From assembly GCF_036971445.1 (NCBI RefSeq), contig NC_091472.1, forward strand, positions 203,484,001 through 203,548,000: a stretch of DNA of 64,000 nt. The letters run 5' to 3'. Source of the stretch: Narcine bancroftii. Taxonomy: Eukaryota. Positions 840 to 48,216 of this stretch are shown here, piece by piece; positions within the stretch are counted from its first letter, which is position 1; the number at the start of each line of letters is the position of its first letter. Below the pieces are notes generated by a model. That model made no database searches. It was not told the origin of the DNA and worked only from the letters and a program-made list of their open reading frames with translations. The translations under genes and the position numbers were made by a program.

Positions 840-1170
840 GAATTGGGAACCTTCCAGCGATCTATTATGGAATTGGGAAGCTTTGAGTGATCTTGTGGAA
901 TTCGGAACCTTCCAGCGATCTATTATGGATCTGGGAAGCTTTGAGTGATCTATTATGGAATTGGGAACCTTCCAACGATCTATTATGGAACTGGGAATCT
1001 TTCAGTGATCTATTATGGAATTGGGAACCTTCCAACGATCTATTATGGAACTGGGAATCTTTCAGTGATCTATTATGGAATTGGGAACCTTCCAACGATC
1101 TATTATGGAACTGGGAATCTTTCAGTGATCTATTATGGAATTGGGAACCTTTGAATGATCTATTATGGAA
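840..1170. repeat. Minisatellite: 11 x 30-bp units arranged as 60-bp A/B dimers
   Basis: Unit AATTGGGAACCTTCCAACGATCTATTATGG alternates with AACTGGGAATCTTTCAGTGATCTATTATGG. 961-1140 is three identical 60-mers. Confidence 0.97.
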
Positions 1171-2463
1171 AGAACTACAACCTCCACTTCGGCAAAATAC
1201 ACGAATCAGACGGCCTCTACTAACAGTGCAGTCAAAGTTCTCTGTTCTAATAAGTTCATCGCATTCAAATTTAATGAAAAATTATATTAATGCGAGGCCA
1301 GTGGCCTCAGTGCACCGCGCCTTCCACGTCTTTCTCTCTCAGCTACATTCGTACTTCAGGAAAAGTCTTGAGCTCACCGTCTTTCTCCTTCTGTGGCGAA
1401 TTTCATCCTGCCTTGTATTATCCAATCACCTTTTCCTTTCCTGACTGAAATGTCCCTTGTATAGTGGAGCCTAACAAAGAAGAGGGAAACTGCGGACTTT
1501 AACCTCTGGTTCAGCTGATACTTTTTGACAAGGGCCAATTCGTCATCCCATCAGCATGTTGGTTGCCACGCGTATGCGTGAACACTCGGGTTTGTAATCA
1601 GTACTCATCCGCCCATATTTATCTCTCGTTTTATATTCCCGCAAATTATTCTTTACGATAAATTCCTTTCTTCCGGGGGGAACAGGCAAGCCGAAATAAC
1701 GATTTCATCACTCTGCACAATCAAAGCGACATTTTAGGTTCTGGTCTCCAGATCATCCAAACAATTTTCCCATCAATAAAATATTTAAAGCATGAAGTTT
1801 GTGCTTCTCGTTGATACAACGGTTTGTAATGGGATTACATTTCTTAGGGAAGCTGACAAAAACGTTTTGCTTGGTGTATCTGCTCTCTCTGGGTGCCGTG
1901 CACAATTTAAGTCTGGCCGATAGATTGTAAACGCAGCACATTAGCAACTCATATAATTTCTGTTTGAACTGTTGTGCCAATATTTAATTAAAAAGATGGA
2001 AAATGTTTGTCTTCGTATTTCGGAATCTAAGCTCGTAGGTTGAGGACTTTTTTGAGTGAAACACGGCAGGCTGGAGACACTGTGATTGTAGTAAACACAC
2101 AGAAACGCTGGAGGAGCTCGGCCCGTCTTTATATCTCAAGAACTGCCTGCCTGGTCGATGCTTCAAAATTCAGATTTAGTGTTAAGACACCAGGTTTCAA
2201 TTCAATATCTGGTGTAGAATCTATGCGGCAACCGGCGCCTCCCGCGGGGTTGATCGCTGTGCTCCAGGCCACAACAAGCCCCAATCTCAGGTCATGCGTT
2301 TGTTCCTGCCGTCCCTGAATTATCTCGTATTGAATGACAGAGGGAATAGATGTGTCCGAAAGTAAAGCGGCCACTGTTTTGTGCATTTTTAAGTAGCCAG
2401 AAATTCAAAACCAAACCCCATCAAACAACTGGCAACATGTAATTGATGCCAACCGGCACCATG

Positions 2464-2471
2464 ATTTGCCT
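2464..2471 (+). promoter_or_regulatory. Mutated Ig octamer (ATTTGCCT) of the IgL pseudogene
   Basis: One mismatch to ATTTGCAT, in TGATTTGCCT decamer context, 113 bp before the ATG at 2577. A CAACTG E-box lies upstream, as in the intact gene. Confidence 0.7.
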
Positions 2472-2576
2472 TAATCAGGTGACATCCAGCCCCACGATTC
2501 ATAAGCGAGTCGAAAACAAGCTGAGAAGCCACTTCAGTCAGAAAATGTGACCTTGCTTTAACACCAGTCAATTGAA

Positions 2577-2625
2577 ATGGGTTGTTGCATTCGGGTGGAC
2601 AGTGTGTTGGTTATTTGCGTGACTT
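2577..2625 (+). pseudogene. IgL pseudogene leader exon (MGCCIRVDSVLVICVT-)
   Basis: Same 49-nt length and phase as the intact leader. ATG context AATTGAA-ATG versus AATTGAAG-ATG, a degenerate GTGACT donor and a 96-nt intron. Confidence 0.75.
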
Positions 2626-2721
2626 GTGACTTTAATCGGCACTTAATTTCTTCCGTGGGAAGTTTCGCTGATGTTTTCATTGCAAATTATTGAACTGAAC
2701 GAGCTGACTCCTATTTTGTAG

Positions 2722-3038
2722 ATTTAAACGCAGAAATTACAGTCAGTCAGTCGCGTTCAACGACCATCGCGCTGGGACAAAACGATCCTGCACTAGGCCT
2801 GGGGCCAGTTTAGAGAATGACAACGTTTACTGGTCATCATCTTCATGCTTCCCGGTTCTCGTCTGTTTTTGGTCCAGCAAGAGCAGCGTGAGACGAGGTC
2901 TGGGAGTTTCAGGAAGGTTCCCCGGCTCCGGATCGGGCAACAAGGGATCTTTCACAATATTAAACGTACAATCGGTGGGCGCCGCAGACTATCATTGCGC
3001 CATAATATTGGGAAAAGGAACAAGGTTGAGTGTTGGCA
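2722..3038 (+). pseudogene. Germline-joined IgL V-J pseudo-exon, frameshifted
   Basis: TTTTGTAG acceptor; LNAEITVSQSRS..LGQ / SCTRPGASLENDNVYW / LPGSRLFL.. / GVSGRFPGSGSGNKGSFTILNVQSVGAADYHC-AII-LGKGTRLSVG, then a phase-1 GTAAGT donor. Indels in FR1 and FR2. Confidence 0.9.
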
Positions 3039-3485
3039 GTAAGTAAAATATATTCTTTCTGAGATGACGTGTGAAAATAATTAATTGAATTACAGTGGGC
3101 AATTTGTTTCTCCGAAAAGTTTCCTTCCTGGAAACAGTGGGGATTATGATCGACAACTTCAAGATGAACAGAAAGATAATTTCAGATTTGCTGCATCGTG
3201 TTGGAAGTTGGAGAAACATTGGTTTAACTTTGATTGAATTTACCGTCATCTTGACGCTGGCACATGACGTTAGTTGAACCGACCCAAAATGTTTTGCCGT
3301 TGATTTTTCGTTTGTATTCAGGCCCTAATAAGCTTTTCCTGGTTAAACCTTTCACCATGTTCGTTGAGCAGCAGAGAACTCCAAGTGCAAATGCAGGAAG
3401 TGAATTTTCAGAGACATGGTTCTGTGTGCTTGAGGTAGACTTAAAATATGGCAGGAAATCACAAAAATAGGTGGGATCTGTTTTG

Positions 3486-4550: not shown

Positions 4551-4913
4551 TTGAGCAACATTCAGAATCATATGGCCTTGGATTTTCTGTTAGCAAAACA
4601 AGGTGGCACGTGTACCATTGTCGGTTCTGACTGTTGCTAGTATATTCCTAATGTAACCACTAATATTTCTGTTATTATTCAGCATGTTTCGAATTCTGTT
4701 CGTGAGCTCCAGCGTCTGGGTATTGTGGCCAACAAGGATAGTTTGAGCCTTGGTTGGAATCCTTTTTCATGGTTAACTGGTACATTTGGGGGGTTGGGCC
4801 ACACTATTCTCCGTTGGTTGCTCCCTTTATTGCTTGTTTTTGTGATTATTGTAGTTTTGATTTCTCTTTTACGCTCTTTTTGTACTCTTATGCTTGTCAA
4901 GTCTCGTGTCTGA
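4551..4913 (+). mobile_element. env: Endogenous retrovirus env TM-subunit remnant (gamma-type)
   Basis: IQNHMALDFLLAKQGGTCTIVGSDCC*YIP contains an immunosuppressive domain and a CX6CC motif, followed by a membrane anchor (WLLPLLLVFVIIVVLISLL). One in-frame stop. Confidence 0.9.
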
Positions 4914-7980: not shown

Positions 7981-9445
7981 AATGGCAGAGTGGTTAGTTG
8001 TAGAAAGTGTGCACCAGCATGTCGATAAGGTTGATGAGATGACAAAACGGAGATGTTTCTTCTGTGGTTTCTCTTACCATTCATGGGATCACTGTCCAGC
8101 ATGTGAGGCTACTTGTAATAAATGTGCCAAGAAGGAGCACTATCCCTGGGTGTGCAAATCCAAGGCTTCACCAAGCTCAGTGGCCACAGTGGTCAATTCT
8201 CATGTAATGTGCCACAAGGACTCGCTCAAGCCACAACCTTTGTGACTAAGTGGGAAAAGGTTAATGCTCTGTTGGATTCATGCAGCACTAATAGTTACAT
8301 TAGCGAGGAAGTCATACAGAAACTAAAACTAGAGGTTCACCCATCCAGTAAAGACTGACTCAGAAAACTTTAACCACTACTTCCCAAGGATATGTAGTGG
8401 TTGACCTAACTGTTAGTCTTAATAGCCAGTCATACACTGCCACATGACTTGGTGTATTGAAGGACCTAGGTTCTGACTTAATACTTAGCCAGGATTTCCA
8501 TTGTCAGCATCTGAGTGTGAATGTGAAGGCGGAGGACCCTTGTCTGAGCTAACTGTGAATGGTGCTGATCAGTACTGAGCACTGACAGCAGCAAAAATAG
8601 AAGAGCCATCCCTTTTCTCAAACCTATCACCAAGCTGTAAACCCAATTGCTGCCAAATCGAGATGCTTTAACAAAGATGATCAGGACTTCATTGCAGAGG
8701 GAATTCACCAATTACTTTCAGAAGGCATAATTGAGATGTGCATATCACCATGGCGAGCCCAAGGGGTAGTGGTGAAGGATCTTGCCCACCGACACAAGAA
8801 GCGAATGTGTGTGGATTATTCACAATCAATCAACACATGGAACTGGATGCTTACTCTTTGCCAAGAATTGACAGAATGGTGAATGAACTTGCCAAATATA
8901 GTGTGTTCTCTTCCTTTGACCTGAAAAATGTCTACCATCAAGTGTCACTGAAGGAGTCAGATAAGAAGTATACAGCTTTTGAAGTCAATGGACGTTTATA
9001 CCAATTTTGTAGGATTCCATTTGTATTCACAAATAGGGTAGCTGCCTTCCAGTGGGCTATGGATAAGTTAGTTAGAGAAGAAAAACTGCAAGGTGCCTTC
9101 CCTTACCTCGATAATATAATTATTGGTGGACTTGATCAAAATGTAAAGAAATTCATAAAGACCATCCAGCCAAAATCACCTAACACTTAATGACCATGGA
9201 GTCTGTGATTTCCATTAATGTCTTTGGATACTGGGTGGGGAAAGGTATCTTTTGGCCAGATGCTGAAAGACTTTGCCCACTACAAGAGCTTCCTCCACTA
9301 GAACATTTGTGATCATTAAAAAGGGTATTCGGGATGTTTGTTTATTATACCAAATGGATTCATGGGTTTTCTAACAAGATTCAACTGATGGTAAATACAG
9401 AGAAGTTTCCAATGGAGGAAAAGGCCCTGAATGCCTTTAACTTAC

Positions 9446-9480
<35 letters not shown>

Positions 9481-11400
9481 GGAGGAAGCCACCCTGCAGT
9501 CAGTGGATGAAAACTTACCCTTTGAGGTAGAGTGTGACGCATCTGATGTGGCTAAGAATAACTTTGCAATATTATGTTTTCCCCACCTAAACAAAAAAAG
9601 GCACTAGCAGTATCAAGGAACTCTTTTCAGGACTACTCCCATCCATATTGATTGGGAGGTTTTGATACATAACCAGAGCTCATTAGTTCTCATGGAGCTG
9701 TTTCAACATCCTCCACACTGTGTGAATGTGAAGGCGGAGGACCCTTGTCTGAGCTAACTGTGAACAGTGCTGATCAGTACTGTGAGGACAGCCTGTTGCA
9801 TTCCTTGCAAAGACACTACAAGGAAGTGAACTGCTCTACCACATTGTAGAGAAAGAAGTGATAACATTGAGGCAGTGCACAAATGGAACCACTGCCTGAC
9901 ATGACACCACTTCAGCTTGGTTACTGATCAGAGGTCAGTGGCCTTTATGTTTGACAGTAAAAAGCATTCAACAATAAAGAATGAAAAGATTCAAGAATGG
10001 AGATTGGAACTTGCAGCATTTAGTTACACAATCAAGTACTGTCCTAAGAAAGAGAATGTGGTCCTTGATGCTTTTAGTTGGGCGTACACTTGTTCAGCCT
10101 TTACTACCCCCACACTCGCTGACATTTCCAATGGACTTTGTCATCCAGGAATAACTCGACTGCTGCATTTTGTTAGAGCAAAGAATCTCCACATTTCTAC
10201 AGAAGATGTCAAGAAGACTTGTGCTTCATGCAGGGTCTGTGCTAAACGAAAGCCTCAGTTCTACCACTCACCAGGAGGGATTCTTATCAAAGCCACAAAA
10301 GCTATTGATTTCAAGGGACCCTTGCCCTACAGCTTCATGTTACCCATATCCACTTGCAGTAGTTGATGAGTACATGTTTCCCCTTTGCCTTTCCATGTCC
10401 CAATATTCACTACAACAGTGATCAGATGCCTGGATCTGCTATTTGGCATATGTGGAATGCCAAATTACATACTCTGATTGAGGCACAACCTTCATGTCCA
10501 AGGATCTTAAAGATTATCTCTCCCAGAAGGGGTTTGCCACAAGTCATACTACCCCATACCACCTAATCAGGAATGGACAGGTAGAGGTTCAACAGCATCA
10601 TATGAAAGGCAGTCAGTTTGGCCTTTATATCACGTAACTTGCTCAAGAATCATTGGGAACTGGTGCTTCGCAAGGTACTACACTCCCAAATATTGCTGTT
10701 GTGTACAGCAACAAATACTACACCCCATGAATGTTTTTTTTTTGCATTCTAACTGCCGCTCACCCCATGGGAATTCACTGCCCTCCTGGCTAATGAACCC
10801 TGGACCTATACTACTAAGAAGATTGGTGAGGAGTAACAGCAGCCCACTTGCAGATCAAGTTGAACTCCCAGTAATCCAACATATGCAAACATCAGGTACC
10901 CAGATGAAGGGGAGTCCACTGTGTCTGTTCGTGACTTGGCACCTTGTGCAGGAACTCGGGTAATCCCCACATCTCCGATTGTGGAACAAGATAAAAGAAA
11001 TCTGGTGAAGCCAATACTTGAGGAGGAGGAGGAATATGTGACGTGGCACAGTGTGGAGGATGAAACAGCTCCACGAGAACTAATGAGCTCTGGTTATGTA
11101 TCAAAACCTCCCAATCAATATGGATGGGAGTAGTCCCGAAAAGAGTTCCTTGATACTGCTAGTGCCTTTTTTTGTTTAGGTGGGGAAAACATAATATTGC
11201 AAAGTTATTCTTAATTATGAATGAGCATGCATTTCATATTTAGCTGATCCTGGCTGCACTGCTCCTCAGGTCACCTGATCTCTTGCTCTAATCAGCTTCT
11301 TGCTGCTGCCATGCTCTTTTAAAAATTCTAATTGCTTTGCAGAACTATTAGCTTTGTTTTCTTCCCATTTAGATTGTATAGGGTGTAGAATAATGAGCAT
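7981..11400 (+). mobile_element. Decayed Gypsy LTR retrotransposon (5'-truncated)
   Basis: Zinc knuckles (CFFCG..H..C), protease LLDSCST, RT PYLDNII, RNase H ECDASD/TDQRS, integrase HPG..C..C/DFKGP, and a PPT at about 11176-11189. Confidence 0.92.
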
Positions 11401-11735
11401 AAATCCACTTATGTCAAATGTATGAGCCAAATAATTTTAAAATCTAATTTTCGGACAGTAATTATAGGATTAAGTTGAGTGAAGTTTGGAAAGCAGCCCC
11501 GTGTTTTTCATTCTCAAAACACCTATGATTTTTTTAATAAAAAGAGATGCAATTTTCTACTCGGGTTGCCGGTGTAACGCGATGTAGCGCTGCAGACTCT
11601 TCTGATCCAAGGACCCGAGTCCGCGTTGAATCCCGGCTAGTTGGGGTTTGCATGTTTTTCCTGCCAGTCACGGCGAGGCTCTCCTCCCATAGCCTAAAGG
11701 CACGCAAGTGGGTTAATAACTTAAATGATCCATGA

Positions 11736-12396
11736 CTGCAGGGAAGTGGTTCGAAGAGAGAAGTGGTTGTTAACAGACGTGCATGAACAAAAGACGGCTG
11801 CATGAGAAAAACTGCAACACCTGGGTGGCCCTCCTGGGGTCCAGGGGCGATTATTGGGGCAAAGGTGATGGCCAAATCTCTGCGTAAGGCAGAGAAACCA
11901 AGATGAGTCACGTCCTTGTATTCATGTATACATAAATAATGTTGGTCTCTCCAGTTCTTAAACTATAAAAATGAAGAAAACTCCTGTATAATTTCGGATT
12001 TGTCCCAACACCCTCAATGCACACAGCAGCTGGACTCCCAGAACAGCTTTACTACTTTGAAGCGGGTTTTGCTGCATTGGAAGTATTAAGGTCAACTCTT
12101 ACCCGCGACTTCTTTTCAACCAGAACCTCGGACCCCCCTGCCGTCTTCAGCAGACGAAGTCCGCGAAAAAGGGCTGGTGTGTTTGGCGAGTGAGTTTAAT
12201 CCGGGCGCTGTGAACGTTGAGTGAACGACCGAGCGCTAAGGAACGGTGTTGAGTGCGAGCAGTTACCAGACTCAGCCTCAGACTGGAAGGTAAACCACCG
12301 TTACTGTGCCTTTTAACCACTGCGGGGAAGTGGTTCGAAGAGAGAAGTGGGTATTAACAGACGTGCATGAACAAAAGACGGCTGCATGGGAAAAAA
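11736..12396. repeat. About 75-bp direct repeat (11736-11810 and 12320-12396)
   Basis: CTGC(A/G)GGGAAGTGGTTCGAAGAGAGAAGTGG..AACAGACGTGCATGAACAAAAGACGGCTGCATG occurs twice with few differences. Confidence 0.9.
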
Positions 12397-12758
12397 GTGA
12401 AACTCGCGCAGCCCTGCTTAAAAAATATAGCGTGAACTCAAGTTGTATTTGATGACGGAAATTTGTTGAGACTGCTGAGAAATTTTTATCACCATTGGTT
12501 TATTGTACTTGATTAAAATCGAGATAATAGATTCGTATTAATTAAAAATGGCACTTGGGCGGCGTTATTGGTCTGTTCACCTTGAACGCCGTCCTAGTGA
12601 TAGAATGCCATCGTTGATCGAAACCTCCAGTTTAATTCACACACGGTTCATCCAACTAAGGCAACCCCGTGTCGATTATGTCCCTTGCATCTGACGGACA
12701 AAGCCAATCAACCCATCTGAATTGCAAACCGACTTCCCTTCGTTCTGTTCTGCTCCAG

Positions 12759-13095
12759 GAAGTTCAAGTATTCTTTTGATGCTCGTTTTCCCCTTGGGAC
12801 TGATCCCAGTTGCGATCAGACATCGCCCTGAAACTGCAGTAAGACTCGCCGAGCTGGCACGTCGCACAGCGCGGATCCTCTGGGCACCAGGTGGATGTCA
12901 GGAAGGGAGCTGGCGATGTTAATCACTTCGCGACAGCCTGTTCTCCATCGGGTCCTGCTCTCCACCGTGCGGCGCCCACTTAAACCGGCGCGGGAGGGGA
13001 AGCGCCAACGCAGACCGGGTCTGAGCACAACCTTAGTCTTCGCTCCAGGGCTTCGTCCTAACAAGCTCCGACACGTTGAAAAGAAGTTGCAGTTT
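12759..13095 (+). pseudogene. Probable highly decayed IgL constant pseudo-exon
   Basis: Strong phase-1 acceptor (TTCTGTTCTGCTCCAG). Residual register matches: VFPL..VA..ETAVRL..TARILW vs LLPP..VA..ATLVCL..SVEVSW; DSLFSIGSC......HLN vs DQTYSLSSY......EWN; GLSTTLV vs SLGSQLT; TLKRSC near the end. ATTAAA at 13180. Both core cysteines are lost. Confidence 0.45.
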
Positions 13096-44174: not shown

Positions 44175-44503
44175 CTACACGCACCCTGATCGCTGGATGC
44201 TCCGTGTCAGCTGAGATCCGAGGGACTCGTGTGTCACCCCGCAAGTGTACTTTTCGTGTGAGTTCCACTCGGAGGTGGACAGGGTCAGATAACTGCTCAG
44301 GCTATAGGTCTGATCGGTGTCCCGGACGGCGCGGGTGGTCTGCACACCAGTCTTCACCGCCTCATCGTCCATACTCCATGAAACCTCCACCGATGCAGGA
44401 AAAAAATTGTTGATCAGACACACCAAAGTCGCCACCTGTCCTTCAGCGACCTGTTTGTCCGCCGGCGGGAGAAGGGAGACCGAAGGGCTGGACATCGTTC
44501 GAC
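44175..44503 (-). CDS. IGL: Ig light chain constant exon (C1-set, lambda-like)
   Basis: ATTACAG acceptor in phase 1. Translation PSVSLLPP...ATLVCLINNFFP..VEVSW...TYSLSSYLTLSTSEWNSHEKYTCGVTHE...RSGCV*, with a penultimate Cys for the H-L disulfide. Spliced CDS is 49+348+329=726 nt and open. Confidence 0.97.
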
Positions 44504-47596: not shown

Positions 47597-47944
47597 TGGA
47601 AACAGTCAATTTGGTGCCTCCGCCGAAGTGTAACGCGTTTGATGTCCACCAACCACAATAGTAATCGGCGAAGTCTTCCAATTGAACATTACTGATGGTT
47701 AAATACGCGGCGTTGTTTGACTGAGACCTTCCAGAGAATCTACTGGGAATTCCTGTTCCCTTTACCTCGCGGTTGAGATCGTGATAGAGGAGATATCGGG
47801 GAGCACTGTCGGGTTTCTGCTGGTACCATGCTATGTCACTGTTTCCCAACGTCGCCCCAGACACGCTGCACCGGAGCTTCACCGTTCCTCCTGGCTGGAC
47901 AAACAGCGATTGCTCCTGAGTTAGCGTGATCTCCGCGTTTGAAC
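47597..47944 (-). CDS. IGL: Ig light chain germline-joined V-J exon (lambda-related)
   Basis: Translation (G)SNA-EITLTQ...LRC...WYQQKPDSAPRYLL...GIPSRFSG...EDFADYYC-GWWTSNALH-FGGGTKLTVS, then a GTAAGT donor at 47596. V and J are fused in frame with no RSS. Confidence 0.97.
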
Positions 47945-48038: not shown

Positions 48039-48087
48039 CGACTGCACAGACCGTCAGCAGAGTGAAGACTCCGATCCACGGGGACAT
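48039..48087 (-). CDS. IGL: Ig light chain leader exon (MSPWIGVFTLLTVCAV-G)
   Basis: ATG at 48087, 16 mostly hydrophobic codons plus 1 nt, then a GTAAGT donor at 48038. A 94-nt phase-1 intron ends in TTCTAG at 47945, the canonical Ig split leader. Confidence 0.93.
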
Positions 48088-48208: not shown

Positions 48209-48216
48209 ATGCAAAT
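48209..48216 (-). promoter_or_regulatory. Ig octamer ATTTGCAT (light-chain orientation)
   Basis: Perfect octamer about 120 bp upstream of the leader ATG. CAACTG E-box and TGACGT half-CRE motifs lie just upstream, and a TATA-like TATGAATAA downstream. Confidence 0.9.

What the first reader, a model, noticed from the sequence alone, without database searches (positions are those of the whole stretch)
2464..3044. Hidden second IgL cluster: germline-joined VJ pseudogene missed by the ORF track
Seen: mutated octamer, 49-nt leader, 96-nt intron, NAEITVSQ start (NAEITLTQ in the intact gene), RFPGSGSG..DYHC-AII-LGKGTRLSVG and an intact J donor. The junction leaves only a 3-residue CDR3 versus 9 in the intact gene. 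Inference: this is a diverged paralog from either an independent germline joining event or a later deletion.
Basis: seen in the sequence. Interest (0 to 1): 0.7.

Follow-up and report, generated by a model that had tools for sequence, protein, structure and literature searches.

The report
Dead lambda antibody light-chain gene
This is a decayed, pre-joined lambda antibody light-chain gene of an electric ray, with its own broken constant exon 9 kb away; its very short third binding loop is likely a later deletion rather than a fresh germline rearrangement, and it appears to be the last relic here of a gene subfamily that other rays keep in many working copies.

Summary
Observation confirmed; interpretation partly supported. 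Octamer-like box, 49-nt leader, 96-nt intron, fused V-J exon and J donor are where stated. It does not derive from the intact neighbour (AU test p=0.009). It groups (99/88) with intact genes of sawfish, stingrays and skates that share its CDR2 motif; 8 of 8 have an 8-residue CDR3, as do the shark sister genes. One 15-nt deletion gives the 3-residue junction with one extra substitution; about seven other deletions scar the gene. So the join is ancient and the short CDR3 is likely decay. A frameshift stops the spliced product at 46 residues. No intact member of this subfamily was found in the genome, though other rays hold seven or more. Germline-joined lambda genes are textbook, so interest is low. 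The scan's earlier notes cover this genome's sigma genes, not this locus.

The parts
2464..2471 (+). Ig promoter octamer with one mismatch, 113 nt before the ATG
   Evidence: 100-129 nt in 4 of 4 intact lambda genes; octamer consensus is recalled
2577..2625 (+). leader exon, 49 nt, open frame; donor weakened to GTGACT
   Evidence: resembles the leader of orthologue P0140
2626..2721 (+). leader intron, 96 nt, GT..AG
2722..3038 (+). fused V-J exon, broken: 7-nt frameshifting deletion at about 2784-2788 (stop at 2811-2813 in the leader frame), about 9 nt net lost in FR2 (about 2834-2857), J Phe changed to Leu; both Cys and the core Trp kept
   Evidence: 65 of 105 aligned residues identical to P0140
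2999..3007 (+). three-codon CDR3 (Ala-Ile-Ile), 15 nt shorter than in orthologues
3039..3044 (+). J splice donor GTAAGT
8735..10363 (+). retroelement remains in the 9.1-kb J-C intron (reverse transcriptase and integrase zinc-binding pieces)
   Evidence: PF00078 E 6e-12; PF17921 E 2e-4, under its cut-off
11735..11811 (+). 77-bp, 95% identical copy of 12319-12395, a local duplication of part of the damaged constant exon
   Evidence: 2 places in the genome
12124..12452 (+). lambda constant pseudo-exon: acceptor AG at 12122-12123, TGA in place of the core Trp at 12222, about five deletions of 4-38 nt, about 70 nt inserted near 12290-12359, original stop at 12450-12452
   Evidence: score 113-123 to batoid lambda C against shuffled max 40.5 of 25, and 60-62 to the neighbour's C
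47597..47944 (-). intact neighbour V-J exon of a different lambda subfamily (comparator; leader 48039-48087, octamer 48209-48216)
44178..44498 (-). intact constant exon of the neighbour; opposite strand, so not usable by the pseudogene

Best explanation
The locus is a broken V-J-C lambda light-chain cluster whose V and J are fused in the germline; it likely inherited that join from a gene already joined before sharks and rays split, and likely lost 15 nt of its CDR3 by an ordinary deletion during neutral decay. Shown: exon layout, lesions, the constant pseudo-exon, the tree position, the 8-residue loop of orthologues. Inferred: (1) the ancestral gene needed no RAG rearrangement, was transcribed from the octamer promoter and spliced leader to V-J to C; (2) it was inactivated in the electric-ray line, long ago judging by a branch of 0.61 against 0.02-0.07 for the end branches of its orthologues; (3) today any transcript spliced at the normal sites would give a 46-residue stub and likely be degraded, so the locus makes no antibody chain.
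For: Tree with CDR3 left out: pseudogene joins six sawfish, stingray and skate genes at 99/88, and this group is sister (95/95) to three shark genes. 8 of 8 V domains with the same CDR2 motif, from 7 ray species, have an 8-residue CDR3 starting AMWK (7 of 8 end in LI), and 6 of 6 shark sister genes checked have 8. 80 of 81 subfamily proteins have 8 (50) or 9 (30), one has no readable motif, none is shorter. One 15-nt deletion from a synonymous coding of the sawfish CDR3 gives the observed 21 bases with 1 mismatch, the Phe-to-Leu change. About 7 further deletions of 4-38 nt lie in V and C; at that density the chance of one starting in a 24-nt CDR3 is about 0.22. Family-invariant residues are kept no better than chance allows (19 of 27 against 30 of 53, Fisher p 0.33). 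C exon carries a stop at the core Trp and scores best to the same ray lineage.
Against: The pseudogene is a long branch and sits as sister to, not inside, the six orthologues; an earlier tree without them placed it with catshark genes at weaker support. No orthologous DNA was on hand, so the junction test rests on back-translation. Short CDR3s exist in intact lambda genes: 5 residues in L005 of this genome and in a chimaera chain, 6 in four shark genes. The order of lesions cannot be read: the CDR3 deletion may precede inactivation. The frame from 2789 to the J donor has no stop in 83 codons. The junction is confirmed only by a run that may be the assembly's source.
Confidence: 0.9

Rival explanations
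1. The 3-residue CDR3 is the scar of a separate RAG-mediated joining in germ cells, with heavy trimming, of a split V and J in the electric-ray line.
For: Germline V-J joining with nucleotide removal is documented for shark kappa (NS4) genes (PMC2193156, sections 3 and 17). CDR3 length varies among lambda subfamilies (5, 6, 8, 9, 11), which hints at several old joining events.
Against: Needs a split ancestor inside a clade whose every sampled member, and its shark sister group, is joined with 8 residues. A review states lambda genes are all joined in all species studied (PMC5192425 passage). The one joint worked out in the section read involves two bases, not 15. No RSS remnant.
Confidence: 0.03
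2. The gene is not dead: a cryptic acceptor at 2751 puts the leader back in frame with the Cys-Trp-Cys frame and would give a 145-residue V-J chain with a short tail, a surrogate-light-chain-like product.
For: A CAG before 2751 does restore the frame on paper; both cysteines, the Trp and both J and C splice sites survive; no stop in 2789-3038.
Against: That acceptor has no pyrimidine tract; strand A would be out-of-frame junk; FR2 residues that pack against the heavy chain are lost (established Ig structure); no excess retention of invariant residues (p 0.33); the octamer and leader donor are mutated.
Confidence: 0.04
3. The CDR3 was shortened while the gene still worked (a viable short-loop variant like L005), and inactivation came later.
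For: The deletion is in frame and inside a loop; intact 5- and 6-residue loops exist.
Against: Three residues is below every intact lambda CDR3 seen here; the deletion removes the Trp present at CDR3 position 3 throughout the lineage; other in-frame deletions (12 and 9 nt in C strands) show that in-frame losses also arose in decay. This differs from the best explanation only in timing.
Confidence: 0.08
4. A duplicate of the intact neighbour at 47.6 kb that decayed in place.
For: Highest raw DNA score among genes of this genome, 145 against 131 and 126.5; shared NAEIT start.
Against: AU test rejects it, p 0.009; V score 121 against 263; C score 60-62 against 113-123; C tree puts it outside the neighbour's clade.
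Confidence: 0.01

Closest known systems
Elasmobranch Ig lambda light chain (type II, NS3), germline-joined V-J-C clusters (PMC5192425, PMC5985310)
   Same: One V-J fused in the germline, one C exon, leader exon with phase-1 intron, octamer promoter, same chromosome region as the four intact lambda genes
   Different: Frameshifted V, 3-residue CDR3, stop and deletions in C: a pseudogene
Intact orthologues: Pristis XP_051887887 (P0140), Hemitrygon XP_072911484 (P0149), Amblyraja XP_032899434 (P0153), Leucoraja XP_055511143 (P0176)
   Same: NDNVYW and WSSKS motifs, J end, SADE motif at the start of C; 56-59% identity over 103 columns
   Different: They are full 239-240-residue chains with an 8-residue CDR3 and are 83-89% identical to each other
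Nurse shark NS4 (kappa) germline-joined pseudogenes R6 and R19 (PMC2193156)
   Same: Germline-joined light-chain genes that have become pseudogenes
   Different: Those sit in a family with split sister genes and record recent joining; here all relatives are joined and the join is ancient

Membership tests
Elasmobranch Ig lambda (type II) light-chain cluster | V, J and C in one cluster on one strand | tested here: met
   V-J 2722-3038 and C 12124-12452, both +
Elasmobranch Ig lambda (type II) light-chain cluster | V and J fused in the germline, no RSS between them | tested here: met
   genomic contigs agree
Elasmobranch Ig lambda (type II) light-chain cluster | V and C group with lambda, not sigma or sigma-2 | tested here: met
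   best PDB hits are mostly lambda chains. No sequence named NS3 or type II was on hand: the label rests on NCBI's automatic names, PDB hits and tree position; my sigma and sigma-2 labels for L006-L015 are recalled, the sigma one also from earlier scan notes
Elasmobranch Ig lambda (type II) light-chain cluster | Octamer promoter, leader exon and phase-1 intron | tested here: met
   octamer has one mismatch, donor is weakened
Functional lambda gene | Open frame through V, J and C | tested here: not met
   46 residues then stop; TGA at 12222
Functional lambda gene | Spliced transcript in lymphoid tissue | tested here: inconclusive
   only guessed-RNA contig sets of unknown tissue could be laid
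Lambda-2 isotype | Short CDR2 of 2-3 residues (PMC5985310, section 30) | tested here: not met
   CDR2 is as long as in the skate and sawfish genes (alignment); no lambda-2 sequence was on hand for a tree
Non-rearranging V-J-type IgSF gene | Best similarity to non-antibody V-J genes, no light-chain C exon | tested here: not met
   best matches are light chains; DNA scores to L011, L019, L020 are 36-64 against 127-145 for lambda genes; lambda C exon present
Processed (retrotransposed) pseudogene | Introns lost, poly(A) tail | tested here: not met
   both introns and the promoter box are kept
Recent RAG-made germline joint | Split sister genes with RSSs in the same family | tested here: not met
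   5 of 5 lambda V hits in this genome are joined; 80 of 81 relatives read through V-J, taken from protein models, not from their DNA

The most novel reading that the evidence does not exclude
This pseudogene is the only remnant of the lambda subfamily that is most expanded in other rays, so this electric ray runs on about eleven intact light-chain genes (4 lambda, 4 sigma-2-like, 3 sigma-like), all pre-joined, with no recombining light chain at all: a jawed vertebrate whose light-chain diversity would come from hypermutation alone.
Probability: 0.5. Interest if true: 0.45.

Novelty: new member of a known kind. Interest (0 to 1): 0.22.

Why it matters
The pseudogene itself is ordinary birth-and-death of antibody genes. 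Two by-products have some value for comparative immunology. First, the shared 8-residue junction across rays and three shark orders implies that this lambda join is older than the shark-ray split, so lambda CDR3 lengths are inherited, and odd lengths in dead copies should not be read as new RAG events. Second, it marks the apparent loss of a whole lambda subfamily in an electric ray with very few light-chain genes, which would make that species a clean case for asking how much antibody diversity needs light-chain recombination.

Tried and rejected
A first tblastn with the neighbour's C found the pseudo-C only at E 0.52; the other lambda C exons found it (E 1.5e-4). No further V or C in 264 kb around the window beyond L002, L003, their C exons and this locus (one weak hit at C9:203435591, E 7e-4, not followed). 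Expression: no RNA holder listed; guessed-RNA sets X7 (V-J), X8 and X9 (C) did not cover the exons, which is no evidence either way, and no control gene was laid. Run X6 (another organism label) matched only a repeat at 3138-3242, so no relative's copy of the junction was obtained. A contig of X5 matching 3009-3047 with loose ends on both sides is likely chance. A 23-of-26 match between the C-exon insert and sigma CDR3 DNA (1-4 of 1000 shuffles, found by eye, blastn E 7) was rejected as unproven. In the C tree (quick method) four read-through columns were taken in the wrong frame; it is used only as a side check. A regular expression printed no rows and was redone; two proteins (P0153, P0160) were dropped for lack of the J motif searched, and P0153 was scored. 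ORFs near 12.8-13.8 kb have no Pfam match. No structure was predicted: a frameshifted domain made it pointless. Literature searches for this locus or for light-chain loss in electric rays found nothing relevant (listings only); subscription papers are not held, and one paper sought by DOI was not held.

Full report
Setting. The window is G000:C9:203484001-203548000. The intact gene at 47597-47944 (-) is 99% identical to a protein that NCBI names for Narcine bancroftii, an electric ray, and 67-81% identical to proteins of 11 other shark and ray entries (12 of the 14 hits; the other 2 are engineered antibodies).

1. Observation. Every element listed is present: a one-mismatch octamer 113 nt before the ATG (100, 118, 126, 129 nt in the four intact lambda genes), a 49-nt leader, a 96-nt intron (81-131 nt in the intact genes), a fused V-J exon 2722-3038 and a GTAAGT donor. 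Similarity is far above chance (tblastn E 1.4e-9; DNA score 145 against shuffled max 87.5 of 200; PDB light chains from E 3e-10). The 611-base stretch is single-copy in the genome. Contigs of run X2, which may be the assembly's source, hold 2300-3165 without a difference; X5, of another sample and study, holds three identical pieces, one of them across the frameshift, none across the junction.

2. What else is there. tblastn of this genome's other lambda C domains over 264 kb found a degenerate C exon on the + strand. It runs 12124-12452 with an intact acceptor AG and the original stop. Frameshift-aware scores are 113-123 to ray lambda C domains, 60-62 to the neighbour's C, and at most 40.5 in 25 shuffles. 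It has TGA at the core Trp codon (12222), about five deletions of 4-38 nt and a roughly 70-nt insert. X3 covers it without a difference (possible source). The J-C intron is 9.1 kb and holds retroelement remains. So the title's second cluster is real and complete in layout.

3. Lineage. The best single-domain hit among 68 representatives was a basking-shark lambda chain. Two further searches (21 and 50 hits) and cluster look-ups gave 81 proteins of one subfamily. Frameshift-aware V scores rank the sawfish P0140 first (263; 65 of 105 residues), against 121 for the neighbour and 122-124 for L004 and L005. With the CDR3 left out (47 rows, chosen by me to cover the subfamilies), the pseudogene joins P0140, P0149, P0168, P0175, P0153 and P0176 at 99/88, sister to Pristiophorus, Scyliorhinus and Heptranchias genes at 95/95. 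It is a long branch (0.61). In a bamboo shark, genes of the pseudogene's subfamily and of the neighbour's subfamily carry locus numbers 7074 and 7076 on a scaffold of the same length, which suggests that the side-by-side layout is old (inference from numbering).

4. The junction. 8 of 8 V domains of the orthologous lineage, from 7 ray species, have an 8-residue CDR3 starting AMWK; 6 of 6 shark sister genes checked have 8. Across the subfamily 50 have 8, 30 have 9, 1 is unreadable. A single 15-nt deletion after the seventh or eighth base of the Cys-Ala-Met codons reproduces the observed 21 bases with one mismatch, in the J Phe codon (back-translation, since no orthologous DNA was available). 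The gene has about seven other deletions (7 and about 9 nt in V; about 12, 9, 7, 38, 4 nt in C; sizes depend on the comparator), so a loss in CDR3 has a prior chance near 0.22. Hence the join is inherited and, given the shark sister genes, likely older than the shark-ray split; the short loop is likely later damage. Against this: intact lambda genes with 5- and 6-residue loops exist, and the order of lesions is unknown.

5. How it works. Inferred ancestral function: a ready-made lambda chain expressed without RAG. Present state: normal splicing would give 46 residues and a stop. A cryptic acceptor at 2751 would restore the frame on paper (145 residues) but lacks a pyrimidine tract, and invariant residues are not preferentially kept (19 of 27 against 30 of 53, p 0.33). 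Expression could not be tested properly.

6. Genome context. Searches with the neighbour V (110 of 110 candidates scored), a sawfish V (126 of 126) and P0140 (150 of 251) found four intact lambda V-J exons and this pseudogene, which is the closest V to P0140 (62%; others 41-47%). By database names, other rays hold at least 7 (Pristis, Hypanus), 9 (Hemitrygon) and more than 10 (two skates) proteins of the subfamily. The eleven intact light-chain V exons that I read (L002-L010, L012, L015) are all joined (the middle of that output, on other loci, was cut), and five further damaged copies showed no intact split gene (one, L094, lacks a joined J and has a weak RSS). These searches are lower bounds and no kappa query was used.

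7. Known literature. PMC5192425 (passages): lambda genes are germline-joined in all species studied; numbers vary widely. PMC5985310 (passages and section 30): isotype table, kappa not detected in little skate, lambda-2 not found in cartilaginous fish and marked by short CDR2. PMC2193156 (passages, sections 3 and 17): RAG-like germline joining of NS4 genes, two joined pseudogenes. PMC2192082 (abstract only): at least 89 skate type I genes, none found unjoined. PMC13320880 (passages): light-chain types not distinguished in cartilaginous fish. Supplements were not read. Searches for Narcine light chains or their loss gave nothing relevant.

8. Verdict. Real feature, correctly seen, ordinary in kind: a new pseudogene member of the germline-joined lambda family. 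The short CDR3 is likely decay. Interest 0.22; the subfamily loss and an all-joined light-chain set are the parts worth a follow-up.

Noticed in passing
window 44178-44498 and L033 (G000:C9:203596833-203597150): The C exons of the neighbour and of the next cluster are 98.6% identical over 357 nt, confined to the exon, while their V genes are 45-47% identical in protein and share no DNA match: likely C-exon gene conversion.
   Followed up: partly
window 47597-47944 (-): The neighbour belongs to a low-copy lambda subfamily conserved across sharks and rays (67-81% V identity) with its own C type, only 44-46% identical to the other lambda C domains and a separate clade (96). Its long CDR2 argues against lambda-2. 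I found no name for it.
   Followed up: partly
window 12489-12800 and beyond: Contigs of two guessed-RNA runs cover single-copy DNA just past the pseudo-C stop; an AATAAA on the - strand at 12499-12504 suggests the 3' end of a convergent transcript. No Pfam match in nearby ORFs.
   Followed up: partly
L005 (G000:C9:204568777-204569106): Intact germline-joined lambda gene with a 5-residue CDR3; a chimaera chain (P0167) also has 5.
   Followed up: no
L083-L085, L090 (C12 and C11): Four damaged or altered joined copies of the sigma-2-like V; three share a 12-residue insert in CDR2.
   Followed up: partly
L011, L019, L020 (G000:C9:2.88-2.93 Mb), L028, L030: V-J-fused Ig-superfamily exons that are not light chains, with very short CDR3-like loops in the C9 group.
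   Followed up: no
window 12290-12359: Insert in the pseudo-C exon with a 23-of-26 match to sigma CDR3 DNA; probably chance.
   Followed up: yes
window 840-1170: Tandem array of about 60-bp period (self-alignment).
   Followed up: no
window 4641-4913: Short ORF with a hydrophobic stretch that recalls an envelope transmembrane piece (recalled resemblance; no Pfam match).
   Followed up: no
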